Of a stretch of DNA of 64,000 bases, positions 1,717 to 42,738 are shown piece by piece. The notes beneath the pieces were generated by a model, which saw nothing but the letters and a program-made list of their open reading frames with translations, was not told the DNA's origin and did no database searches. How positions within the stretch are numbered: the stretch's first letter is position 1; each line of letters begins with the position of its first letter. The DNA comes from Candidatus Woesebacteria bacterium GW2011_GWB1_38_8b. Lineage in GTDB: Bacteria > Patescibacteriota > Microgenomatia > UBA8517. The position numbers and the translations under genes were made by a program. Location: contig LBVN01000007.1 in assembly GCA_000993115.1 (NCBI GenBank), positions 3,587-67,586 on the forward strand, read 5' to 3'.

Positions 1717-1739
1717 ATATTTAATATAGCAAATTATAA

Positions 1740-1866
1740 CAGTTTCGAGAAAACCACGGGTGGTAGCCCTTGGATGAATCGAACCTGATATGTCATCCTC
1801 CTTTGGAGGTTTCGTTCGCAGGAAGCGAACTGGAAACCACGTCTGGAAGGACGTGGAGGATGTCAT
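1740..1866 (-). repeat. structured repeat element, copy A (127 nt), between the uvrC stop and the DUF360 gene
   Basis: Positions 1740-1810 are identical over 71 nt to 2023-2093. The remainder is related but holds an extra hairpin, CCACGTC-tggaag-GACGTGG. On the minus strand the element starts with ATGACATCCTCC and contains GGAGGATGACAT, a 12-nt imperfect inverted repeat. Confidence 0.85.
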
Positions 1867-3325: not shown

Positions 3326-5133
3326 CGATGAAATTTTCGGTGCAGCGTAAAAAAGATACTTACAATTATAAATATTAATACAAGTAAAATTGCAATTTGG
3401 TTAATAATAGCGACTTCTTTTCCCGTATCAACCTCAATTGCCCTGTCACTACTTAAAATAAGGACTTTATCAGGAATATTTTTTGCAAGTAGTCCGTAAT
3501 TAAGTTTTACTTGCATTTCAAATATTTCATAAGGTATTAAGGAGGGTAAGAAAACATTATCATTTGGGTTTTTATCATTAGATTTAACATGTAAATCAAT
3601 ATTATATTCGGCTGAATACCCTTTATTTATTAAAGTAACTAATAATGTTTTTCGAAGAGGGTTATAGCTTTTTTTTATTTCAGCCTTGGTTTCTATGTTT
3701 GGAGCAATCGAATCAGGTAATTTTCCGTAACTGACAAAAACATCTTTTTTGGGAACGCTTGAAAATTTGTATGAGCCGGCAGGCAAAGGCTCCGAGTCAT
3801 TTACACCGTGAATGACAAATGCAAAATGGTTTAGATCAAATTTATTGAAATAGTCAAAGCCTGTTGTAGATTCCCAAGTTGGATCAACCGCAACCCAAGT
3901 TCTTCTGTCATTGTCCCAATACTCTGGCCATGCATGTAAAACATCCGAGACAAGCGACAACGGTTGTAGTTTATCATTTTCTGTGTAAGCATAACCCTGA
4001 ATTTCACGCACAGGAATTCCCGCTGCTCTGGTGATTGCAATAAACAAATCGGTAAATTCCGTACATAGGGCACTATTATACTGCTGGAGAGCTTTGACGG
4101 ATCCGAACCTTTCAGACTGAGGATTGACTCTGTTGAAATCATACTTAAGAGTTTTAACGACATATTTATATATTTCATCTACGGTTTTCAGCTCATTCGC
4201 TAAATCAGTAATTGCTTTATCATCAGTTTGCCAAAAACGCGTATCGCCTAAATTGTTTAAAATTGATTGAGGTGTGGGAAGTGTTAAAGATCTGGGGTCG
4301 GAAAATAATTGGACAAAACCGCTAACTACAACTGTTTTTTGCTCTAGTGGTTTTAATTTAAAAGATAAAAGCCAGTTGCCATCCTCGTCTTTTCTGGATT
4401 TAACGGGATCAGTCGAGAGTTTTGTCAGATAAACATTTTGGTACGGTGTATCGGGGGGAACGGCGATATCTAAATTTTGAGATTTTGTCGATTCGTTTTT
4501 TAGATTGTAATTAAGGTTAAATTCAAAAACCTGGAATTCTCCGAATGCAGCTTTTATTCCGCTATCGAAAGAATTCTGTCCTTTAAAAACAAATTCAATG
4601 TTTTCGCCATTTTCATTTCTCTCATATTTTGACGGCGTAACATAAGCGAGTGGACCCGTTGATGACGGAATAATAAGATGATTTTCAAAAACATCTATAT
4701 CGATAGAATTTAACTTTGGAATCGAGATTTCCAATATATTCCCCGTTTTTTTTGCAATATTTTCTTCTGTGAAATTAATTTGGAAATTACGTGTTTTCCC
4801 CTGGCCGTATAAATCATCCTCAAAAATTATTTTGACATAGTAAGAGTTTTGTTCCTCGGTCAGGTTAAATTTTAATTCTTTTCCGTTTTGGGTGACACTA
4901 AGATTTTTGGGTTTTAGGTAAGTAAAATTTACATGAAATTCTTTAGCCAGTATTTCGGACTTTAGATTTTCTATCGTGTAATCAAAAGTAACGTTTGCAG
5001 AAGCTTGGGTACTAACTTCATATTTGGCAACAAGTGTAGTTTTAAAATCGTCTTTTGCAATTATATTTTTTGGGAAAATTAGTAGTAATAAAAATGATAT
5101 TAGTGCAAATTTGATTATTTTTTTAAGTGACAT
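3322..5133 (-). CDS. transglutaminase-like (Cys-His-Asp core) exported protein with N-terminal signal anchor and C-terminal TM helix
   Basis: ALCTEFTDLFIAITRAAGIPVREIQGYAY...HAWPEYWD...WVAVDPTW matches the transglutaminase-core motif. It overlaps uvrA by 11 nt and uvrC by 4 nt. Confidence 0.7.
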   Translation of the reverse strand: MSLKKIIKFALISFLLLLIFPKNIIAKDDFKTTLVAKYEVSTQASANVTFDYTIENLKSEILAKEFHVNFTYLKPKNLSVTQNGKELKFNLTEEQNSYYVKIIFEDDLYGQGKTRNFQINFTEENIAKKTGNILEISIPKLNSIDIDVFENHLIIPSSTGPLAYVTPSKYERNENGENIEFVFKGQNSFDSGIKAAFGEFQVFEFNLNYNLKNESTKSQNLDIAVPPDTPYQNVYLTKLSTDPVKSRKDEDGNWLLSFKLKPLEQKTVVVSGFVQLFSDPRSLTLPTPQSILNNLGDTRFWQTDDKAITDLANELKTVDEIYKYVVKTLKYDFNRVNPQSERFGSVKALQQYNSALCTEFTDLFIAITRAAGIPVREIQGYAYTENDKLQPLSLVSDVLHAWPEYWDNDRRTWVAVDPTWESTTGFDYFNKFDLNHFAFVIHGVNDSEPLPAGSYKFSSVPKKDVFVSYGKLPDSIAPNIETKAEIKKSYNPLRKTLLVTLINKGYSAEYNIDLHVKSNDKNPNDNVFLPSLIPYEIFEMQVKLNYGLLAKNIPDKVLILSSDRAIEVDTGKEVAIINQIAILLVLIFIIVSIFFTLHRKFHR

Positions 5134-8033
5134 TAAGGTGTTTTTTTAAATACTGCCCCGTGTATGAGTTTTTCTCTTTAATTATATCCGAAACGGTTCC
5201 GGCTGCTACAACATTTCCACCGTTTTCCCCGCCTCCGGGACCAAGGTCAATAATCCAATCGGCATTTTTAACGACGTCTAAATTATGCTCTATTACAAAA
5301 ACACTGTTACCTCTTGATACCAAAACTTTAAGGACATAAAGAAGCTTTCGGATGTCGTCTAAGTGAAGTCCAGTAGTGGGTTCATCTAAGATGTAAACTG
5401 ATTTACCAGCCTCTCTTTTTGATAATTCCGAAGACAGCTTGATTCTTTGGGCTTCTCCTCCGGAAAGAGTCGTCGCGGATTGTCCAAGCTGCATATATCC
5501 AAGCCCGACTTCCTTTAAAGTTTCGAGTTTTTTATAAACAGGTACAAAACTATGGAAAAACTCAAGCGCTTCATCGACTGTAAGCGCCAGAACTTCGGCG
5601 ATATTCTTACCCCGATAAGATACTTCCAAAGTCTGTGAGTTATAACGCGTTCCTTTACAAACTTCGCATTTAACCCAAATGTCGCTCATAAACTGCATTT
5701 CAATTTTAGTTTCGCCCTGACCTTCACAGGCTTCACAGCGTCCCCCTTTTACGTTAAAAGAAAATCTTCCCTTCTTAAATCCAAGTGACCTTGCCTCTCT
5801 TGTTTCGGAATACAAATCGCGAATTAAATCAAAGACTTTAGTGTAAGTTGCGGGATTACTTCTAGGAGTCCTTCCGATAGGAGATTGGTCAATTAATATT
5901 ACTTTCTCGATGAATTCGTTCCCATACAGTTCATTATATTTTGACTGCGTAATTCTTGAATTTTTATTAATGGTTTTAAATAATGCAGGATAAAGAGATT
6001 CGACTAAAAGCGTAGATTTTCCTGAACCGGATACACCCGTAATAACAACATATTTTGAAAGAGGGAAGCTTACATCGATATTTTTTAGATTATACTGCGA
6101 GCAGCCTGTAAGCGTAATTGAAGAGGGAGGTAAAAAATCGGTTGTTAAATTTTGATTTTTGTTATTTTCTGCATTTTTTATTTTACCTACTTCAACCTTC
6201 TTTTTCCCCGACAGATATTGTCCCGTAAGTGATTTGGGGTCTTTTTCTATTTCAAGAGCTGTCCCTTGTGAAACAACTTCTCCGCCGTATTTTCCCGCAC
6301 CAGGCCCAAAATCAACAACGTGGTCAGCGTGGCGAATCATATCCTCATCGTGTTCAACTACTATAACCGTATTACCAAGTTCCTTTAACTTTTTTAAAGT
6401 GCTTATTAGTTTATCGTTATCTTTTTGATGAAGTCCTATGGTTGGCTCATCCAAAACGTACAATACACCTGTTAAACCCGAGCCTATTTGGCTTGCCAAT
6501 CTGATTCTTTGTGCTTCTCCTCCAGACAGCGTTCCTGAAGTTCTTGAAAGAGATAAATAATCAAGTCCGACTTCGATTAAAAACAAGAGTCTGTCATGAA
6601 TCTCTTTTAATATAAGTTTTCCGATTTCTTTTTCCCGCGAGTTAAGAATCGGTTTTTCTATAAGAGAATTAATCCAATCCAAAGTTTGTGATATTGAAAC
6701 GACAGTTATGTCGTGAATAGAGCGGTTTTCTACAGTAATTCCCAAGATTTCCTTTTTAAGTCGTGTCCCTGCACATGTGGGGCAAATTATTTCTTTCATG
6801 TATTTAAGAGTTATTTCGCGCACCATCTCCGAGCTTGTAGTAGCATAGCGCTCTTCCAATACATTCAGAATTCCCTTAAATGGTTCATAAATTTGAGTTT
6901 CCCTACCGAATCGGTTTGTACCGTGAACCTCATAAATCCGATCCCCCGTACCATTTAGAAGCAATTTTATTTTTTCATCGTCGAGTGTTTTTAAAGGTAC
7001 TCTTGTTTCAACTGAGTTTTCTTCGCAAAATGCCAAAATTAGCCTTGAAAACCAGGTTTCATGCTCAAACATATTTGAAAAAGGAAGAATTGCACCTTCT
7101 GTTATAGAAAGTTCCCATGAAAAAACGCTTTCTGGGTCGACTTTCAAAACATGACCGATACCCGAGCATTCGAAACAAGCTCCGTGGGGTGAATTAAAAG
7201 AAAAAGATCTCGGCTCTATTTCCGGAATTTGAACATTGTCTATCGGACAAGCAAATTTTTCACTGAATAAATGATCCTCAAATTCTTTCGGGGTTACGGG
7301 AATTTCTAAAGAATTATCTTTAATGTGAGAAATTATTGCCAGTCCGTCGGAAAGCTTAAGTGTTTGATCAAGCGTTTCGAGCAGTCTTGATTCCAGGTTT
7401 AACCTAAAAACTTCATTTTTAAAATCTTTTTTGGAAAGTGAAAATTTATCAATGACAACTTCAATTGAATGCTTATTGGTTTTTATTAAATACAAGTCTT
7501 CATTAAGCCCTCTAATCTGCCCGTCAACTCTTATTTGGGAATAACCTTTTGCTTTGAGATTAACTAGAAGCTGAGAAAACTCTCCTTTTTTATCTTTTAC
7601 AATCGGAGACAGAACCAAAAACCTAATCGTAGGATTTAAATTTAGCTCTTTTTCTATAAGTTTTACTACCGAGATCTTGATTTCGTCAACAGTTTGAGTT
7701 GAAATTTCACGACCGCAAACAGGACAGTGTGGATGCCCTATTCTTGCAAACAAAAGCCTTAAATAATCGTAGATTTCCGTCACGGTTCCGACAGTTGAAC
7801 GCGGATTTTTAGAAGTCGTTTTTTGATCGATAGAAATTGCCGGAGATAATCCTTCTATCGAATCAACATCTGGCTTTTCCATTATTCCCAAAAACTGTCT
7901 GGCATAAGTCGACAAGCTTTCTACATAGCGCCGTTGGCCTTCGGCATAAATAGTGTCGAATATCCAGATTAATGTTTTTTAAATTGTGCTGACGGGCACC
8001 TCTTATTTTTATTTGTTGATTTGCAATTTCCAT
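5123..8033 (-). pseudogene. uvrA: excinuclease ABC subunit A, disrupted: N-terminal Walker A segment deleted and frameshifted
   Basis: ORF 5123-7915 is UvrA from STYARQFLGIMEKPDVDSIEGLSPAISIDQK onward. The frame is open to 7957 as DTIYAEGQRRYVESL. A separate frame (8033-7959) encodes MEIANQQIKIRGARQHNLKNINLDI. The segment expected between them (about 21 aa, containing GxSGSGKS) is absent. Confidence 0.8.
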
Positions 8034-8104: not shown

Positions 8105-8131
8105 ACTATACGAATTATACCCGAATGTCAA
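8105..8131 (-). promoter_or_regulatory. candidate sigma70-type promoter for uvrA
   Basis: The minus strand reads TTGACA (8131-8126), a 15-nt spacer, then TATAGT (8110-8105). The spacer contains TTCGGGTATAATTCG, which resembles the lexA promoter spacer. Confidence 0.35.
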
Positions 8132-10113
8132 TTAAACTGCTTAATTTTATCCCTAAATGCAATCGCAAGTTCAAAGTTCAAATCATCTGCGGCTGTGCGC
8201 ATTTCCCGACGTAACTTTGCAATAAGCTTTTTCTGCTCCATTGGGGTTAAACTTGACGATTCAAAATCAAGCTTCCTGGTCGAAACTTTCAGTAACTTTA
8301 TTTCTTAAGGGTTTTTGAATTGAAGTCGGAGTAATATTGTGAATTTTATTATATTCGACCTGATATGCTCGTCTTCTGTCTATTTCTGATAAAGCGGCTT
8401 CGATTGATTTCGTTCTTTTGTCTGCATATAAAATAACTTTGCCTTCAACGTGTCTGGCGGCGCGTCCCATTGTCTGGATTAAACTTACGCGGCTTCTTAA
8501 AAACCCTTCCTTGTCTGCATCTAAAATTGCAACCAAAGAAACTTCAGGAAGATCTAGTCCTTCACGGAGTAAATTAACTCCAACTATTACATCAAATTTA
8601 CCTCTTCTTAAGTTATCCAGAATGTCTGTTCGTTCCAAGGTATCAATATCCGAGTGCAAATAATTTACTTTTATTCCTTGCCCCCCAAGATATTCTGATA
8701 AATCTTCTGCGGTTTTTTTTGTTAAGGTTGTTACCAAAGTTCTCTGACCTTTTTTTGTGATTTTTATTATTTCTTCTATAACATCTTTTACCTGATTTTT
8801 AATCGGTCTTATTTCAACCAACGGGTCCGGAATTCCGGTTGGCCTTACAAGTTGTTCGGTAACTCCATTTTCTTTTGGGTTATTGTTATATGCGTTGGCA
8901 GCCGACTGGTAAGCATTATTTAATTCCCATTCGTCGGGAGTTGCACTTGTGGCAATAAAACGTGGAATTCTTCTTATAAATTCCTCAAATTTTAAAGGGC
9001 GGTTGTCAATTGCAGCAGGAAGCCTGAAGCCGTAATCGATTAATGTTTTTTTACGAGATAAATCTCCTGCGTACATACCCCGTACTTGTGGAAAGGTAAT
9101 ATGACTCTCGTCGGCAACAAGTAGCCATTTATCTCCGAAAGACTTCTTAAAATAGTCCAGGAGCGAGTAAGGGGCATCTCCGGGGTTTCTTCCGTCGAAA
9201 TATCTTGAGTAATTTTCAATACCTTTGACATAGCCTACTTCGGAAAGCATTTCAAGGTCATACTTTACGCGTTGAGAAATTCTTTGGGCTTCGATAAACT
9301 TTCCTTCCGAATTAAACAAATCTACCTGTCTTTGTAGATCGCTTTTAATATTTGCAATGGCGCCTTTATTTTGTAAAGGGTCAGTGATGAAGTGTTTAGC
9401 CGGGTACAAAACATAATTTGTTAATTTCCCCTTTGCCTTGGGTGCTGATGGAGTTAAAATTTTGGTTCCGAAAGATGAAATTAATCCAAAATATTATTAT
9501 TTTCCCATTCGGTGTTGTGGTGAAAGGTAAAATGAGGGTAGTTTTTCTTAACCACATCAATTAAATATCCGCCAATAAAATGGATATCCTTTAAGCCGTT
9601 AACGGAAAAATTCTCCAAAGCCCGGTCCAGCATGCTTTTACCATTAACTTTAGTAAAACCTTTAGGAACCTTGGCAGAATAAGGCATTATCCTGTTTCCC
9701 CGCCCTGCTCCAATAATTATTATTAATAAATTTGTCGTTGCACCCAGCCTGAGTTTGTCTATTAAATCATTTATGTCGGAATCTTTTTCGATATAGGTAT
9801 CGGTTGAAGGAATATAAGCTTCGGGCTGGTAATAATCATAGTACGAAACAAAATAACTGACAGCATTTTCAGGAAAAAAATCCCGGAATTCCTGGTAAAG
9901 TTGGGCGGCTAGGGTTTTATTGTGTGAAAGTATTAAAGTTGGAAGCTGCGTTCTTTCAATTACGTTTGCAATCGTAAAAGTTTTACCGGAACCCGTAACA
10001 CCCAAAAGAACCTGATTATCAATACCCCGTGATATGTTTTTGGAAAGCTTTTCAACTGCATTTTTTTGGTCTTCAATAAGATCGTATTCAGATTTTATTT
10101 TAAATTTGTTCAT
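8128..10113 (-). pseudogene. uvrB: excinuclease ABC subunit B, disrupted: internal replacement, frame change and 3' frameshift
   Basis: 9724-10113 encodes the UvrB N-terminus ([10 protein letters not shown]...[10 protein letters not shown]...RLGATTNLL). 8267-9480 encodes UvrB from about KILTPS...YPAKHFITDP to the helicase C-terminus, in a different frame. The UVR domain (MEQKKLIAKLRREMRTAADDLNFELAIAFRDKIKQFN) is in a third frame and ends at 8128. Confidence 0.8.
9481..9723 (-). other. 5' fragment of a nucleotidyltransferase (NTP_transferase, LicC/MobA-like) gene embedded in uvrB
   Basis: (L)[80 protein letters not shown] matches the N-terminal roughly 80 aa of sugar-phosphate/choline-phosphate nucleotidyltransferases (GxGxR signature). 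It is fused in frame to UvrB residue 130 and ends in a stop. Confidence 0.65.
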
Positions 10114-10165
10114 GTAATAATTTTATATGATATAAAAATATAAGAATAATACCCAAAATTAGCTA

Positions 10166-10194
10166 TTGACTTCTTCGGGTTATATTTGTATAAA
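10166..10194 (+). promoter_or_regulatory. candidate promoter for lexA, with leaderless geometry
   Basis: TTGACT (10166-10171), a 17-nt spacer, then TATAAA (10189-10194). The ATG at 10201 lies 6 nt after the -10 element. Confidence 0.5.
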
Positions 10195-10200
10195 TATAGC

Positions 10201-10770
10201 ATGGCTCCAATAATTTACAAGAAACAATCACAAATTCTCGATTACATAAAACAGCACATCCAATCAACAGGATCTGCACCAACACTGCGTGAAATTGCAA
10301 TTGCAATTGGAGTAAGCTCCTTGGCAACTGTTCATGAACACTTAACAGCTCTTGAAGAAAAAAAGTTAATTAAAAGAAAAACAGGTAAAAACCGTTCTAT
10401 TGAGTTGGTAAACGAAACTATTAATTTTGAGGAGAAAGGAATTGAAGTTCCTATTTTAGGCTTTATTGCGGCAGGTGCGCCAATTGAGCCTTTTACTGAT
10501 CCGAATTCGTCGCTATCAATTCCAAGTGTATTTCTTTCCGGCAAAAAAAGAACTTATGTTTTAAAAGTTAAGGGCGAGTCGATGATCGATGAGCAAATCA
10601 GGGACGGCGATTATGTGATTATTGAGCAGTCTGAGATAGCTAATAACGGCGACATTGTCGTTGCGCTTTTGGATAACGGTATGGCTACATTGAAGCGTTT
10701 CCCGATATTTGTAAAAAATGTACGAATTCAGGGAAAAGTAGTAGGCCTTATACGGCGTTATTCGGCATAA
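10201..10770 (+). CDS. lexA: LexA repressor (S24 peptidase), apparently about 15 residues short in the C-terminal domain
   Basis: Winged-helix N-terminus, Ala-Gly cleavage site (FIAAGAPIEP), catalytic Ser in KGESM and Lys in ATLKRF. I start it at the ATG at 10201 rather than the track's TTG at 10186. Confidence 0.8.
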   Translation: MAPIIYKKQSQILDYIKQHIQSTGSAPTLREIAIAIGVSSLATVHEHLTALEEKKLIKRKTGKNRSIELVNETINFEEKGIEVPILGFIAAGAPIEPFTDPNSSLSIPSVFLSGKKRTYVLKVKGESMIDEQIRDGDYVIIEQSEIANNGDIVVALLDNGMATLKRFPIFVKNVRIQGKVVGLIRRYSA

Positions 10771-10779
10771 ATTATTTTT

Positions 10780-12423
10780 TTAGAAGTTTTTGATTTCTTT
10801 AAGCAGATCTCTCCCCGTCATTGACGCAGGAGCCTGTACTTCCAATAAACTAAGTACTGTCGGAGCAATATCTGCCAAAATACCTACTTTCAGCGTTTGC
10901 GAATGGTTTAACAGCGGACGAAAAACACAAACAAAAGGTACATTATTATTACTATGTTCTGTATCAATCTCACCGGTTTTTAAATTTATCATTTCTTCTG
11001 CATTGCCGTGATCAGCTGTAATTAGCAGTGCTCCTTCGTAAGCCAGTGCAAAATTAGCCAGTATTCCAAGCTGTTCGTCAACTTTTTCTACAGCTTTTAC
11101 AGTAGGACCGATATTTCCTGTATGGCCTACCATATCCGCGTTGGGGTAATTAACTAACGCAAAACTGTAATCTCCATTTTTTAATTTTTCTACCAATACA
11201 GATGTTATTTCTTGAGCCATCATTTCGGGTTTTTGATCATAAGTAGGGACTTTGCTTGATGGAATAATTACTTTTTCTTCATTGGTGAAAGGCTTTTCGC
11301 GGAAACCGTTAAAGTAAAACGTTACGAATCTTTCTTTTTCGCTCTCTGTTACCTTAAGTTGTCTTAAATTGTTGTTTGAAATAACTGAGCTTAAAGGCAT
11401 AGTTACAGTATCCGGTGGAAAAGCAACTTGTGTGCCTTCGTCAACTAAAGACCTGCTGTATTCGGTCATTGTGACGAAAAATAAATTTTCAATTCTTGCT
11501 CCCCTTTCAAAAAGTTTTATGCTACTTGGATCAGTAGGAGTTTTTTTATAAGGGTTACTGTCGTAATCAGATTTTGCAGATGCGAAATCTTTATAAACAA
11601 ATGCTTTTGTAAGTTGCCTTGGCCTGTCAACTCTAAAGTTGAAAAATATTGCTGAGTCGTTTTTTGATATTAAATTTATTTTACCTTCTTTGTTTTTAAT
11701 AAGAATCGGCTCTATGAATTCATCGGTAATGCCTTTTGAATACGAATCATCCATAGCTGTTGCAATATTGTCATAAATTTTTCCTGTGCCTTGTGTTAAG
11801 GCTTTATATGCTTTTTCGGTTCTGTCCCAACGCTGGTCGCGGTCCATTGCCCAATATCGCCCCATGATTGATGCAATAGATCCTACTTTCTCTTTATCCA
11901 AAAGTTTTTGAATGCCGGCTAGCACGGCTTTTGATGAAGTTTGGGGAGAATCGCGGCCATCAGTAAATAAATGAAGATAAAGACTGTTAAATTTATGTAG
12001 AGCTGCAAGATGAATTAATGCATATAAATGATTTAAGTTTGAATGAACGCCTCCCGTTCCGATTAGTCCCATTAAATGCAAATTTGAATTATTTTTTTTG
12101 GAATTCTCTATCGCGGAAAGAAGTATTTTATTTTCAAAAAAAGAGCCGTCCGAAATTGACATATTTATTCTTTCCAAATCTTGATAAATAATACTTCCGG
12201 CGCCCAAATTAATGTGTCCGGTTTCAGTATTTCCGTCTTCGCCTCGAGGTAAACCGACAGCTTGGCCTGCAGCCTCTAATTGTGTATGGGGGTAACTGGC
12301 TAAAAATTTATTAATATTTGGAGTATTAGACAAAGTGATTGCATTTCCAGCCCCGGGTGTTGCAATTCCCCAGCCATCAAGAATAACTAAAACGACAAAC
12401 TTAGGTTTAGAATTTAATGACAT
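10780..12423 (-). CDS. gpmI: 2,3-bisphosphoglycerate-independent phosphoglycerate mutase
   Basis: 547 aa with VILDGWG, GNTETGH and ADHGNAE motifs. Confidence 0.85.
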   Translation of the reverse strand: MSLNSKPKFVVLVILDGWGIATPGAGNAITLSNTPNINKFLASYPHTQLEAAGQAVGLPRGEDGNTETGHINLGAGSIIYQDLERINMSISDGSFFENKILLSAIENSKKNNSNLHLMGLIGTGGVHSNLNHLYALIHLAALHKFNSLYLHLFTDGRDSPQTSSKAVLAGIQKLLDKEKVGSIASIMGRYWAMDRDQRWDRTEKAYKALTQGTGKIYDNIATAMDDSYSKGITDEFIEPILIKNKEGKINLISKNDSAIFFNFRVDRPRQLTKAFVYKDFASAKSDYDSNPYKKTPTDPSSIKLFERGARIENLFFVTMTEYSRSLVDEGTQVAFPPDTVTMPLSSVISNNNLRQLKVTESEKERFVTFYFNGFREKPFTNEEKVIIPSSKVPTYDQKPEMMAQEITSVLVEKLKNGDYSFALVNYPNADMVGHTGNIGPTVKAVEKVDEQLGILANFALAYEGALLITADHGNAEEMINLKTGEIDTEHSNNNVPFVCVFRPLLNHSQTLKVGILADIAPTVLSLLEVQAPASMTGRDLLKEIKNF

Positions 12424-18778: not shown

Positions 18779-19394
18779 CATTCTAACTGTGTGGCGATAA
18801 AGAAATCAAGAAGGGATCTTAAATCGCCCTTGCCGGTTTTTGCTTCAACATCAAGCTCTGATAATTTTTCTACCATAGCTTTAATATCATTTTCAGAGAA
18901 ACCTTCAGCTTGTGATTGTAGTCGCGAATAAATCGCTGAGATAGTAAATGAAAAACAAGTTCAACAGGTTCAACTTTTACAACCTCGTTTAAAAGATCCA
19001 TGGCATTTTTCGCATTTTTAGATTTTAGCGAATCCAAAAACTTCCATATTATTTTCGGTAAAGTGTAACTCTCAATTTTTAAGTCTTTTCCAAAATATTT
19101 TATTTTTGAAGCAGGAACTGCATTCTCGGTAATTACACATAGAACTAAATTATCATGGGTCAAGTTTTTATTTATAGAATCAAGATCTTTATTGGATAAA
19201 AGTGATAATTTTTCGATAAGTATAAACTTCTTGTTGAGAAAAAGATCATCAGCTCGGAGTTCGTTATCGATTTTTGTTGGTGAGTCTGATATTTTTGAAA
19301 TAATGTAGGATTTTTCCTTCGCGCTGTCGATAAGCTTTTTAATTCTTAAACTGACTTTTTCCGAATCATCGCCAGTTATTAAAATTACTTTCAT
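18779..19394 (-). CDS. holA: DNA polymerase III delta subunit-like protein (short), interrupted by a frameshift
   Basis: The N-terminal ORF 18870-19394 looks delta-like. A second frame, open over 18779-18960, encodes ...SRLQSQAEGFSENDIKAMVEKLSELDVEAKTGKGDLRSLLDFFIATQLE, a typical delta C-terminus. A single indel around 18925-18945 would join them into about 204 aa. Confidence 0.5.
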
Positions 19395-24031: not shown

Positions 24032-27000
24032 TTAATTTGCGAGGTTTTCTAATATTTGCTCGATAGAATGGGCCATCTGGGTGTCCCAATTAATTTTTAC
24101 GTTTAAATCGAGCTGTTTATTTATTTCTCCTTCAAAAACAAGGCAGACTTTATGATCACCCGGATTTTTTAATATCAATTCTTTAAGGCTGGATAATTTT
24201 TCCGTCCCAGTCCCTTTAGGGATTCTTATAAATAATTTATTATCTTCAGTAATTATTTCCTTTTCGTTTTTAATTGACTCAACTATAAGTGAAGGCTCTT
24301 CGTCACGAAAATCAATTTTTCCTGATAATAAATAAGGATTGCTGTCCGTAAGAATTTCTTTTGTTCCGCTAAAAATACTTGGGAAAATAACTACATTAAT
24401 TGTTCCTGTTTCATCCTGAAATTTTGCAAAAGCCATTTCTTGTCCGCTTTTTTTTGTAATAATTACCCTCAAATCATTAATTATACCGGCGATGTTTACT
24501 TCCATTCCTTCTGATCCTGTTATGTGATTATCAAATATATCGCTTATTTTAAAGTTGGATAATTTATTAATGTTTTTCAGGATTTCACCGTTTGGATTTC
24601 TTCGTCGGTAAACTCGTCGATATCCTGACCCATCAAATTGTCAAACTTTAAAGAAGTTGAGTTTAAATCTGAAAGTGAAAACAGTTCATTTTGGTTTTCA
24701 TTTTTGAGAGCTTTACCTGAATATTTTTTATACTCCTCAACCACTTTCAGAAGTTGTGATCTTTTACCAAAGTCCGATAAAGCACCTACTTTGATTAAAC
24801 TTTCCAAAACCTTTTTGTTTACCCTTCTTCCATCTACTCTTTCCAAGAAGTCCAGGAAATTCTTAAATTTCTCTTTATTTCGTTCAGTTAATATAGCATC
24901 TATTGCAGCATTCCCTACGTTTTTAATAGCGCTTAAACCAAAGCGAATCCCTTTTTTATGACTTGAATCAACAGTTTCTTCAATATCAAACCCAACAGAA
25001 CTTTTATTAATATCGGGTGATAAAACTTTTACGTCCATTCTTCGGCATTCATTTATGGCTTCGGTAATTTTATCAGTGTCATTGCTTTCTGCAGTCAAAA
25101 GCGCACACATGTACTCAACAGGATAGTTCGCCTTCATATAGGCGGTTTGGTACGCGACTAACCCGTAACTTGCAGCATGTGCTTTATTAAAGCCGTAAGA
25201 TTGAAAAGGTTCAAATAATTTCCATAGATCTTCTGCAAATTTCCCGGTTTGTCCATTGTCAACTATACCTTTTATGAATTTTTCTTTCTGCGCCGCCATT
25301 TCTTCGGGAATTTTTTTACCTACCGCTTTTCTGAATTTGTCAGCTTCTTCCCAGGAATAACCTGCCAAATCAAGTGCACAGAACAATAGATCGTCCTGAT
25401 AAACTAAAAGACCGTACGAAGCTCCTAAGAATTTTTCCATTCTCTTGTCTAAAAATTTTACGAGAGTTGGATCGTGCTTTCTTTTGATGTACTCAGGGAT
25501 TTGTTGAATAGGCCCGGGGCGATAAAGCGCTACCATTGCCATTAAATCTTCAATTCGGGTTGGTTTTAACTCTTTTAAAAATTTTGTCATGCCTGAGCCT
25601 CCCAATTGAAAAGTGCCCATTGTTTCTCCTCGAGCTAGCATCTCATATGTTTTTTTATCGTCAAGGGGAATGTCATTAATTTTTATTTTTGTCCCGTACC
25701 TTTCTTCAACAATTTTTATGGCAGCCCCCAAAATAGATAAATTCCGGATTCCTAAAATATCAAATTTAATTAGTCCAACATCTTCACAGGTATGGAATTC
25801 ATATTGAGTAATAATTTTGTCGCCTGATGGCTCAAGCTGTACTGGAGAATAATCGGTAATTTCAGTGGGTGCAACCACAACTCCTGCTGCGTGTACCGAG
25901 AGATGTCTTGCCGATCCTTCAAGCTGTATAGCTAAGTCTAAAATCTTTTTAACATCAGCATCACTTTTATACATATCGTTTAGTTCGCTAACTTCTTCCA
26001 GAGCTTTCGGAACTGTAATAGGGAAACCCTGTTTTGGCGGAGGGATGAGTTTTGCTACCTTGTCTCCTGTTGCATATGGATATCCTAAAACACGTGCCAC
26101 ATCACGTACAGCCGCTCGGGATAGCATCCTTCCGAATGTACAAATTTGTGCGACCTTGTCATGGCCGTATTTATCGGAAATATATTTTATGATTTCTTCT
26201 CGTCTGTCGTCGGCCACGTCGAAGTCAATATCCGGAGGAGAGGGTCTGTAAGGATTTAAAAAACGCTCAAACGGTAAATAATACAAAAGTGGATTTATTG
26301 TGGTTATTCCTAAAACAAAAGAGACGAGTGAGCCTGCCGCAGAACCCCTTGTATTTGTAATAATCCCCTGTTCGTTGCTCCACCTTGCGAGATCCATAAC
26401 AATTAAAAAATATGGCGAGTAACCCTTTTGGCAAATTATATCTAGTTCGTAATTTAATCTTTCTTCTTCTTCTTTGCCTGATTTAGGAATTATAATTTTT
26501 AAGTTTTCGTGTGAAAGTCTTCTTAATTCCTCATCGGGTGTTTTCCCTTTGGGCAAACTGAATTTAGGAAAAAACCATTTGCCTAAAGTAATTTCCAGTT
26601 CGCACTTTTGGGCTATCTTTACGCTGTTTTCTATTGCATCCGGGATATCAGAAAATATTTTCTGCATTTCATCGGGTGTTTTTAAATAAAAGTCCGGATT
26701 ATCTATATATCGTAAGCGCTTTATGTCGCCTACGTTTTTCCCTGTTGCAATGCAAACCAAAGCATCCTGAGCAGGAGCGTCTTCCTTTTTAATATAATGA
26801 GCATCGTTTGTTGCTACTAATGGAATACCGAATTCACGGCTTAATTTAATCACTCCATCTTCATACTTTTTACAATTATCAGCAACTCTCTCGAGATCAG
26901 ATTTTAATTCAGGAATTTTTATATCTGGTAATATACTCTCGTAATTATGCCGTTGTATTTCCATATAAAAATCGTCTTTAAAAACATCTAAATAAAACTC

Positions 27001-27465
27001 TGCCAACTTTGATGCTTCCAGGTAGTTTTCATTTATAAGGCTTTGCGGTATTTGAGCGGCTGGACATCCTGAAAGACAAATTAAGCCTTCACTGTATTTT
27101 TTAAGGATTTCGTTGGTAAAGCGAGGTCTGTAATAAAATCCTTCAATATGTGCAATCGATGTAAGTTTCATCAGGTTTTTATATCCGGCTATATTTTTTG
27201 CTAAGAGAGTGAGGTGATAGTTGTCTTTAACCTTTTCGGTAAGAGACGTTGTTACATATCCTTCAAGTCCAATAATTGGCTTTATTCCTTGTTTAATCCC
27301 TTCTTTGTAGAACTCTATTGCACCATACAACTCTCCATGGTCAGTGATTGCAACGGCATCCATATTGTTTTCACCAATATGCTTAAAAAGCTTTTTTATA
27401 TTGCTTAAGCCGTCAAGAAGAGAATACTCAGTATGAACGTGAAGATGTACAAATTTTGCGGACAT
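24032..27465 (-). CDS. dnaE: DNA polymerase III alpha subunit, split into two ORFs by a frameshift near 24577-24613
   Basis: 24577-27465 encodes the PHP, palm/fingers and HhH regions (FVHLHVHTEYSLLDG...). The OB-fold and C-terminal tail (MEVNIAGIINDLRVIITKKSGQEMAFAKFQDETGTINVVIFP) are in another frame that is open from 24613 downward. The fused length would be about 1143 aa, normal for DnaE. Confidence 0.8.
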
Positions 27466-42195: not shown

Positions 42196-42738
42196 TTACA
42201 AGTTTCTGATACTCGCTTTTTCCGGCCCAGGAATAGGGGTAGTGTCGTGCAGAGTTGCGTGTTTTCTTAGATATTGGATCTCCTCTACTTCATCGGGTGA
42301 TTTAAATGTCAAAAATGCTTTTCCACCGGGTTTCAAAATTGTAAAAATATCTTGGAGAAGAAGCGCTGTTTCACTCTTGTCAAAATAATTAAGCGAAAGT
42401 CTTGAATACGCAATATCAACAGTAGCCGGCTTTAACGGAATTCTATGAAGACTAAAATCTACTTGTTTAATTATTAATTTACTTTCAAAACCTTTTTTCT
42501 TGGCATTCGCCATTGCAATACCAAGTGCGTATTGTGAAATATCCAAAATAATAACACTATGACCTTTTTCCAAAAAATACATAGCATCAGCACCAACTCC
42601 ACCTCCCAAGTCAATAATTACGGAATTTCTGGGAAATAAAGCTTCTTTTTCCTGAGCATATTTTGATACAATCAATCCTCCGGTGGCAGTTTTCTGATGA
42701 TATAAATCCCAAACCTTAGAATCTTTCTCAAAACTCAT
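42196..42738 (-). CDS. class I SAM-dependent methyltransferase
   Basis: Motif I VIIDLGGGVGADAMYF, 180 aa. Confidence 0.75.
   Translation of the reverse strand: MSFEKDSKVWDLYHQKTATGGLIVSKYAQEKEALFPRNSVIIDLGGGVGADAMYFLEKGHSVIILDISQYALGIAMANAKKKGFESKLIIKQVDFSLHRIPLKPATVDIAYSRLSLNYFDKSETALLLQDIFTILKPGGKAFLTFKSPDEVEEIQYLRKHATLHDTTPIPGPEKASIRNL

What the first reader, a model, noticed from the sequence alone, without database searches (positions are those of the whole stretch)
9410..9723. About 100 codons of uvrB replaced by the 5' end of a nucleotidyltransferase gene
UvrB reads normally to RLGATTNLL (residue 130). It then switches without a stop into [32 protein letters not shown]...[13 protein letters not shown]. 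This is the N-terminal ~80 residues of an NTP_transferase-type enzyme (GxGxR loop) and ends in a stop at 9481. UvrB resumes around KILTPSAPKAKGKLTNYVLYPAKHF in a different frame. The intervening UvrB region, including the beta-hairpin/domain 1b-2 segment, is missing. The rest of the donor gene is not in this window. This is either a genuine illegitimate-recombination scar or a chimeric assembly join.
Basis: partly seen in the sequence, partly recalled or inferred. Interest (0 to 1): 0.6.

Follow-up and report, generated by a model that had tools for sequence, protein, structure and literature searches.

The report
Misassembled foreign patch inside uvrB
The odd uvrB/nucleotidyltransferase hybrid is real in the deposited sequence, but it is almost certainly an assembly error in one low-coverage metagenome-assembled genome, because every other assembly of the same bacterial population carries a normal uvrB.

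Summary
On the minus strand uvrB reads normally for 130 codons (10113..9723). A 288-nt foreign patch follows (9722..9435), and uvrB resumes at 9434 in another frame. The patch replaces 313 nt, UvrB residues 131-235, which form the UvrA-interaction domain 2. The beta-hairpin is retained.

The window is Candidatus Woesebacteria GW2011_GWB1_38_8b, and the hybrid ORF is GenBank KKQ87354.1. Six independent contigs of the same population have 99.8-100% identical flanks and an intact 683-aa uvrB. That intact protein is also annotated in two sibling MAGs. None carries either junction.

The first 238 nt of the patch match, with one mismatch, the 5' end of a 614-aa nucleotidyltransferase/MetE-like fusion gene. 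That gene lies on contigs with 43% GC (window 35%) from the same ANAN16-1 and ERZ272547xx assembly series. The last 50 nt are of unknown origin.

The same contig has six further private blunt deletions of 41-251 nt. They hit uvrA, the uvrB 3' end, lexA, a pol III delta-like gene, dnaE and a methyltransferase, yet there are almost no SNPs.

Verdict: a local misassembly with a chimeric gap fill, not biology. Its only value is as a database-hygiene flag.

The parts
9723..10113 (-). uvrB 5' part: codons 1-130 plus the first base of codon 131. It is 100% identical to the intact population uvrB.
   Evidence: L081 8232-9210 aligns to window 10701-9723 at 100% identity.
9485..9722 (-). Donor-derived part of the foreign patch, 238 nt. 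It corresponds to codons 4-82 of a 614-aa nucleotidyltransferase/MetE-like fusion gene from another organism. It happens to be in frame with uvrB codons 1-130.
   Evidence: Positions 9719..9485 are identical in 8 donor contigs (L090, L100-L107). Five more (L125-L129) match 237/238. The only mismatch is at 9720 (A versus G).
9435..9484 (-). 50-nt tail of the patch, of unknown origin. It supplies the TAA stop at 9481-9483. On the + strand it reads ..LGADGVKILVPKDEI..
   Evidence: there is no significant match in the donor loci, the intact uvrB loci, the window or the viral contigs.
8272..9434 (-). uvrB middle and 3' part, from residue 236 (KGKL...) onward. It is out of frame with the 5' part, because 313 nt were replaced by 288 nt.
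   Evidence: L081 9524-10689 aligns to window 9434-8269 at 99.9%. Pfam finds Helicase_C and UvrB.
8269..8271 (-). Junction of a private 41-nt deletion near the uvrB 3' end. It causes a frameshift, so the UVR-domain codons at 8128-8268 are left in another frame.
7958..7960 (-). Junction of a private 62-nt deletion in uvrA (gene 5123..8033). It removes the first Walker A segment and shifts the frame.
   Evidence: The intact UvrA of 990 aa is seen in L081-L083.
10701..10702 (+). Junction of a private in-frame 51-nt deletion in lexA, which shortens it from 206 to 189 aa.
18925..18926 (-). Junction of a private 58-nt deletion in a DNA pol III delta-like gene, which shortens it from 224 to 174 aa.
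24591..24599 (-). Junction of a private 46-nt deletion in dnaE. The gene spans 24032..27465. The 1159-aa protein is cut to 962 aa by a frameshift.
42248..42249 (.). Junction of a private 251-nt deletion. It removes the 3' ends of a methyltransferase gene (229 to 180 aa) and of a convergent 111-aa gene.

Best explanation
The hybrid is a local assembly error in one deposited MAG contig: Candidatus Woesebacteria bacterium GW2011_GWB1_38_8b, contig UT10_C0007, 73,852 bp.

In a poorly covered stretch around uvrA-uvrB-lexA, the assembly broke into short pieces of about 311, 1166 and 979 nt. These pieces were then joined without their missing sequence, which left blunt 'deletions' of 41-62 nt. One gap of about 313 nt was filled with a 288-nt chimeric piece. 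That piece was built from reads of a different, co-occurring organism (238 nt of its nucleotidyltransferase/MetE-like gene) plus 50 nt from elsewhere.

Because the patch happens to be in frame with uvrB codon 130, gene callers produced a 210-aa 'UvrB' hybrid, KKQ87354.1. The organism itself most likely has an intact 683-aa UvrB.

Shown here:
- The lesions are private to this contig.
- All other assemblies agree with each other.
- The donor has been identified.
- The donor's contigs have a different GC content.

Inferred:
- The exact software step is not known. It could be scaffolding, gap closure, local assembly or automated error 're-assembly'.
- Low coverage as the cause is read from the '_8b' in the MAG name.
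For: 1. Intact locus elsewhere. Six independent contigs span both junctions with the intact sequence (ENA MEGAHIT re-assemblies and ANAN16-1 scaffolds). Their flanks are 99.8-100% identical to the window. A JGI contig, L087, ends inside uvrB before the junctions. No fetched locus contains any of the three chimeric junction 40-mers.

2. Singleton versus common. The intact 683-aa protein is on 11 contigs and in the sibling MAGs GWA1_37_8 and GWC1_37_12b. The hybrid is a singleton on one contig and is absent from the gene-position index.

3. Donor identified. Patch positions 9719..9485 are identical to 8 contigs of a 614-aa gene that sits next to the L25, ValRS, TsaD and LigT genes. The longest of these contigs has 43.0% GC, against 35.2% for the window. 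The donor protein is known only from JGI and ENA and is not in any NCBI MAG, so it is not annotated in this MAG. Donor variants occur in the same ANAN16-1 and ERZ272547xx assembly series as the Woesebacteria contigs.

4. More private lesions. The contig has six further private lesions across 63 kb. All are blunt, with 0-3 nt of microhomology. Five of the six shift the reading frame, and they truncate dnaE and a pol III delta-like gene. The 18 compared population contigs, including two NCBI sibling-MAG contigs, show no internal structural break against their reference contigs.

5. Almost no point differences. There are 0 mismatches over 16,038 nt against L122, 0 over 12,772 nt against L117, and 2 over 13.7 kb against L083.

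6. Not an artefact of window preparation. The lesion-spanning ORFs are annotated in GenBank for this MAG only, so the joins are in the deposited record.

7. Known problem. Local assembly errors with unsupported sequence are a described problem of IDBA-UD scaffolds from this laboratory's pipelines (PMC7111523).
Against: No reads could be examined, so lack of read support at 9722/9723, 9484/9485 and 9434/9435 is inferred and not shown. The metagenome assembly of the MAG's own sample (GWB1) could not be identified among the reference contigs, so a sample-specific variant is not formally excluded. The origin of the 50-nt tail is unexplained. The blunt joins carry no Ns, so the precise artefact mechanism is unknown. 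Four of the seven lesions cluster in 2.8 kb of SOS/NER genes, which could superficially suggest targeted decay.
Confidence: 0.92

Rival explanations
1. This is a genuine illegitimate-recombination scar. In the strain sampled in GWB1, DNA taken up from a co-resident bacterium replaced uvrB domain 2, and nucleotide excision repair (uvrA, uvrB) is decaying into pseudogenes.
For: The junctions are in the deposited record. uvrA and uvrB carry three further lesions within 1.8 kb, which is what a decaying pathway would look like. The donor lives in the same aquifer sample series. Blunt joins with 0-3 nt of microhomology are compatible with illegitimate recombination.
Against: The same kind of blunt lesion also truncates dnaE and a pol III delta-like gene and removes part of lexA and a methyltransferase, so the lesions are not specific to NER. 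A frameshifted dnaE is hard to reconcile with a viable cell. Seven structural events against about 0-2 SNPs in 63 kb is not a natural mutation spectrum. No other assembly among the 20 or more contigs fetched carries any of the seven lesions. The replacement (288 nt) is nearly the same size as the lost segment (313 nt), as expected when a gap of estimated size is filled.
Confidence: 0.04
2. The patch and deletions are real but belong to rare defective genomes in the population, for example dead or dying cells or DNA in vesicles, and the assembler picked these up at low coverage.
For: The MAG appears to be low coverage, judging from the '_8b' in its name, so a minority haplotype could dominate locally by chance.
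Against: This would need seven independent minority structural variants to be chosen on one contig while every SNP position follows the majority. No other sample shows any of them.
Confidence: 0.03
3. The lesions were introduced after deposition, for example by stripping Ns or by editing during preparation of the window.
For: The window contains no N, and the joins are blunt.
Against: GenBank proteins of this MAG span the joins exactly as in the window: KKQ87354.1 (hybrid), KKQ87355.1 (LexA, 189 aa), KKQ87371.1 (DnaE, 962 aa), KKQ87361.1, KKQ87389.1 and KKQ87390.1.
Confidence: 0.01

Closest known systems
Local assembly errors in short-read metagenome scaffolds (described for IDBA-UD and other assemblers; Chen et al. 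2020, PMC7111523)
   Same: The consensus sequence is unsupported at scaffold joins, with missing or wrong sequence. It is confined to one assembly. It yields truncated or incorrect protein-coding genes that then spread into public databases.
   Different: Read support could not be checked here. The diagnosis rests on comparison with many independent assemblies. In this case the wrong sequence can also be traced to a specific gene of another organism.
Inter-genome chimeric contigs in MAGs
   Same: Sequence from two organisms of one community is joined in a single contig. The donor contigs differ in GC (43% versus 35%) and in gene neighbourhood.
   Different: Typical chimeras join long blocks at shared repeats or conserved genes. 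Here only 238 nt are foreign and they sit inside a gene. The junctions share no k-mer-length sequence, only an AT-rich TAA/TTA run at the 5' join.
Genuine uvrB pseudogenes and NER loss in reduced genomes
   Same: The result is a disrupted uvrB and uvrA with frameshifts and internal deletions.
   Different: True pseudogenes are shared by related strains and accumulate point substitutions. Here the lesions are private to one contig, the flanks are identical to intact copies, and essential replication genes are hit in the same way.

Membership tests
Local misassembly / chimeric gap fill | The structural difference is present in one assembly only, while independent assemblies of the same population agree with each other. 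| tested here: met
   All seven lesions are private to the window. The 18 compared population contigs show no internal structural break against their references. There are 0 hits for the chimeric junction 40-mers and 6 hits for the intact ones.
Local misassembly / chimeric gap fill | The inserted sequence is traceable to another genome of the same community. | tested here: met
   There is 235/235 identity to 8 donor contigs. The longest donor contig has 43% GC against 35% for the window. Donor contigs come from the same ANAN16-1 / ERZ272547xx assembly series. The donor protein is absent from NCBI MAGs.
Local misassembly / chimeric gap fill | No read matches the consensus perfectly across the junctions, and read pairs are inconsistent. 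| not testable with these tools
   No read data are available. This is the decisive missing test.
Local misassembly / chimeric gap fill | Other errors of the same kind occur on the same contig, including in genes that cannot be lost. | tested here: met
   There are six further blunt deletions. dnaE is cut from 1159 to 962 aa, and the pol III delta-like gene from 224 to 174 aa.
Genuine recombination scar / uvrB pseudogene | The junctions recur in independent samples or assemblies of the lineage. | tested here: not met
   The hybrid ORF and the shortened LexA are singletons. The gene-position index has no record of either.
Genuine recombination scar / uvrB pseudogene | The donor gene is present in the same genome (an intragenomic event), or the patch has diverged from the donor (an old transfer). 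| tested here: not met
   There is no other copy in the window. The donor protein is not in NCBI under this or the sibling MAGs. The patch differs from the donor at only 1 of 238 positions. The rest of the MAG's DNA could not be read directly.
UvrB (excinuclease ABC subunit B) | A complete architecture: helicase domains 1a/1b with the beta-hairpin, domain 2 (UvrB_inter), Helicase_C, the UvrB motif and a UVR domain, all in one frame. | tested here: not met
   The window copy lacks residues 131-235 (UvrB_inter, PF17757) and is split over three frames. The population copy P0151 has all the domains.
Sugar-phosphate nucleotidyltransferase (Pfam NTP_transferase / NTP_transf_3) as identity of the insert | The score reaches the curated family threshold. 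| tested here: inconclusive
   the fragment scores 21.1 bits against a cut-off of 21.2; the full donor scores 24.7 bits on NTP_transf_3 against a cut-off of 27; there are weak sub-threshold hits to GlmU/AglF/MurU-type models; there are 830 homologues, many of ~250 aa. The fold class is likely, but the exact family is unassigned.

The most novel reading that the evidence does not exclude
A real sublineage of this Woesebacteria population, present only in the GWB1 sample, took up DNA from a neighbouring bacterium. That DNA replaced the UvrA-binding domain of UvrB, and the sublineage is rapidly losing SOS/NER functions through a burst of blunt-ended deletions. This would be a snapshot of repair-pathway collapse in an ultra-small CPR bacterium.
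Probability: 0.04. Interest if true: 0.5.

Novelty: not a real feature. Interest (0 to 1): 0.08.

Why it matters
Biologically it does not matter, because the organism almost certainly has normal uvrA, uvrB, lexA and dnaE genes.

Practically it is a database-hygiene flag. GenBank KKQ87354.1 (UniRef100_A0A0G0NN77) is annotated 'UvrABC system protein B' but is a two-organism chimera. At least six other proteins of this contig are truncated by assembly errors: KKQ87353.1, KKQ87355.1, KKQ87361.1, KKQ87371.1, KKQ87389.1 and KKQ87390.1.

Surveys of gene loss, pseudogenes or domain fusions in CPR bacteria that include this MAG would misread these as biology. The case also shows that such calls can be settled without reads, by comparing a MAG contig with independent assemblies of the same population.

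Tried and rejected
- A word-index protein search with the 80-aa fragment found nothing. The exhaustive representative search and the metagenome locus search were needed to find relatives and the donor.
- A genome-contig search with the UvrB C-terminal part gave only relatives of 59% identity or less. There is therefore no close species representative, and the window's own genome is not in that collection.
- An exact look-up of the hybrid ORF and of the 189-aa LexA in the gene-position index found no record.
- I tested whether the 50-nt tail is a diverged or internally deleted continuation of the donor gene ('GFISSYSDITFTPE' versus '[14 protein letters not shown]') or a diverged uvrB. The local DNA alignment score was 24, no better than random matches elsewhere at 24-30. 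No hit appeared in any fetched locus or in the viral contigs. Both ideas were rejected as unsupported, and the origin is left unexplained.
- I considered microhomology-mediated deletion as a biological signature. The junction overlaps are 0, 0, 0, 1, 2, 3 and 3 nt, the last within an imperfect 9-nt match, in AT-rich DNA. This is not distinguishable from chance.
- I considered N-stripping or editing by the window provider. This was rejected because GenBank proteins span the joins.
- Brown et al. 2015 (doi 10.1038/nature14486) could not be read. Statements about that study's assembler and curation script rest on secondary descriptions and on my own recollection.

Full report
**What is in the sequence**

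On the minus strand, ORF 9481..10113 encodes 210 aa. Residues 1-130 are a normal UvrB N-terminus: Walker A 'GVTGSGKT', then '[10 protein letters not shown]...[11 protein letters not shown]'. Residues 131-210 read [32 protein letters not shown]...[13 protein letters not shown], followed by a stop. Pfam places residues 11-85 in ResIII/DEAD. It places residues 132-180 at the very start of NTP_transferase, with 21.1 bits for the isolated fragment against a cut-off of 21.2. A second ORF (8267..9409, 380 aa) carries Helicase_C and the UvrB motif, and a third small ORF (8128..8241) holds the UVR domain.

**Source of the window**

An exhaustive search with the 80-aa fragment returned a 210-aa protein identical to the hybrid ORF. 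An exact look-up identifies it as GenBank KKQ87354.1, 'UvrABC system protein B', of Candidatus Woesebacteria bacterium GW2011_GWB1_38_8b. It is a singleton on one 73,852-bp contig. The chimera is therefore in a public MAG and was not created when the window was prepared.

**The same locus in other assemblies**

The neighbouring phosphoglycerate mutase (10780..12423) is encoded with an identical product on 21 public contigs. Five of the ten shown reach across uvrB, and every one carries a 683-aa UvrB with all domains, a 206-aa LexA and, where complete, a 990-aa UvrA. A sixth (L089) reaches 1.1 kb into uvrB and covers both junctions.

At the DNA level the window is 99.8-100% identical to these contigs on both sides. 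Between L081 positions 9210 and 9524, however, 313 nt are replaced by 288 unrelated nt (window 9722..9435). Forty-mers spanning the two intact junctions occur in six independent contigs. Forty-mers spanning the three chimeric junctions occur in none. The intact 683-aa protein is on 11 contigs and is annotated in the two sibling MAGs GW2011_GWA1_37_8 and GWC1_37_12b.

The lost residues 131-235 align to B. caldotenax UvrB 132-237. They contain the UvrA-interaction domain (PF17757; PDB 3FPN chain B). The beta-hairpin region is upstream and is retained, so that detail of the finding is wrong. UvrB identity resumes at KGKLTNYV (9434), not at 'KILTPSAPKA'.

**Origin of the patch**

A metagenome scan with the fragment found a contig with 97% amino-acid identity. 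At the DNA level, window 9719..9485 (235 nt) is identical to this contig and to seven other contigs that encode the same 614-aa protein. Five contigs of a variant match 237/238.

The donor gene starts ATGAAAGTAGTAATTATTGG, so the patch begins 9 nt after its start codon and ends inside codon 82. The donor protein is a nucleotidyltransferase-like N-domain fused to a cobalamin-independent methionine-synthase-like domain. It lies beside the genes for ribosomal protein L25, ValRS, TsaD and LigT, on contigs with 43.0% GC against 35.2% for the window.

The donor protein is known only from JGI and ENA assemblies and from no NCBI MAG, so it is not annotated in this MAG or its siblings. Donor contigs come from the same assembly series (ANAN16-1_SAMN038424xx, ERZ272547xx) as the Woesebacteria contigs. 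The remaining 50 nt (9484..9435), which supply the stop codon, match nothing I could search.

**The contig has more errors of the same kind**

I compared the whole window with more than 20 population contigs fetched through four further proteins. The comparison shows six additional differences private to the window:

| Position | Lesion | Gene affected |
|---|---|---|
| 7958-60 | 62-nt deletion | uvrA (removes the first Walker A, frameshift) |
| 8269-71 | 41-nt deletion | uvrB 3' end (frameshift) |
| 10701/2 | 51-nt deletion | lexA (in frame) |
| 18925/6 | 58-nt deletion | pol III delta-like gene (224 to 174 aa) |
| 24591-99 | 46-nt deletion | dnaE (1159 to 962 aa) |
| 42248/9 | 251-nt deletion | methyltransferase and a convergent 111-aa gene |

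No lesions occur between 42249 and 64000. The joins are blunt, with 0-3 nt of microhomology. The reference contigs, including two NCBI sibling-MAG contigs, show no internal structural break against one another and differ only by SNPs.

Point differences between the window and the closest contigs are almost nil. There are 0 in 16,038 nt (L122), 0 in 12,772 nt (L117), and 2 in 13.7 kb (L083). The lesion-spanning ORFs are all annotated in GenBank for this MAG and each sits on a single contig, whereas the intact versions sit on 2-27 contigs.

**Interpretation**

The contig has seven structural lesions against essentially no SNPs. Five of the six deletions shift the reading frame, and so does the 25-nt net loss at the patch. 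Two lesions hit replication genes. None is seen in any other assembly of a population sampled many times. One lesion is filled with sequence identical to another organism's gene and is close in size to what it replaces (288 versus 313 nt). This is the signature of local misassembly and not of evolution.

The short blocks between lesions (311, 1166 and 979 nt) look like small contigs of a poorly covered region that were scaffolded and then closed without the missing bases. This step is inference. The exact software cause cannot be determined here. Chen et al. 2020 (PMC7111523) describe such unsupported 'local assembly errors' as common in IDBA-UD scaffolds. Castelle et al. 2017 (PMC5220378) describe the ra2.py correction script, credited to Brown et al., being applied to a genome from the same study.

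I put about 0.92 on the artefact. I put about 0.04 on a true recombination scar, and the remainder on a rare defective haplotype or post-deposition editing.

**Comparison with known things and novelty**

This is a known kind of error (local assembly error, inter-genome chimera in a MAG) and not a new biological feature. It fails the test for a genuine pseudogene or recombination scar because the junctions do not recur. It meets all the sequence-level criteria for misassembly. The read-support criterion could not be tested.

**Verdict**

Interest is low (0.08). The only value is in flagging KKQ87354.1 and six neighbouring truncated proteins as unreliable.

Noticed in passing
window 7958-7960, 8269-8271, 10701-10702, 18925-18926, 24591-24599, 42248-42249: Six further blunt deletions (62, 41, 51, 58, 46 and 251 nt) are private to this contig. 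They truncate uvrA, the uvrB 3' end, lexA, a pol III delta-like gene, dnaE and a methyltransferase. All the other population contigs are intact.
   Followed up: yes
window 9435-9484: The 50-nt tail of the foreign patch has no identifiable source. On the + strand it reads like coding sequence (..[17 protein letters not shown]..), so it may come from a third organism.
   Followed up: partly
window 1734-1830 and 2017-2113: A 97-nt direct repeat at 94% identity, with copies 283 nt apart. One copy lies inside the 3' part of uvrC (aa 405-437, apparently an insertion in the RNase H-like domain). The other lies at the 5' end of the downstream holin-like membrane-protein ORF. Both encode 'PPKEDDISGSIHPRATTRGFLET'. 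The unit contains two small hairpins (CCTCCTTTGGAGG and a GTTCGC...GCGAAC stem). It is also present in the population contigs, so it is real. There are only two copies in the window, and no tRNA is detected there.
   Followed up: partly
L100 10001-11845 (donor contig C687J35174_10002319): The donor gene encodes a 614-aa fusion. The N-terminal ~250 aa are a nucleotidyltransferase-like domain and the C-terminal part is a cobalamin-independent methionine-synthase-like (Meth_synt_2) domain. All family hits are below curated cut-offs. A 597-aa protein with the same length class and N-terminal domain (P0004) exists elsewhere. The function of this fusion is unclear.
   Followed up: partly
L111 1-301 (GCA_000992155.1 LBTR01000010.1) and L112 1-106: The first 301 nt of a sibling-MAG contig and the first 106 nt of an ENA contig do not align to the window or to the other population contigs. 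These may be unrelated sequence at contig ends, another possible local error.
   Followed up: no
P0162 (KKQ43353.1, sibling MAG GW2011_GWA1_37_8): LexA is annotated as 143 aa in that MAG, ending '...DYVIIET', against 206 aa in the population contigs. This is probably a contig-end or assembly truncation in the sibling MAG as well.
   Followed up: no
window 10114-10200: lexA and uvrB are divergently transcribed from an 87-nt AT-rich intergenic region. uvrA follows uvrB. uvrC lies further downstream, after a transglutaminase-like gene. No SOS box was looked for.
   Followed up: no
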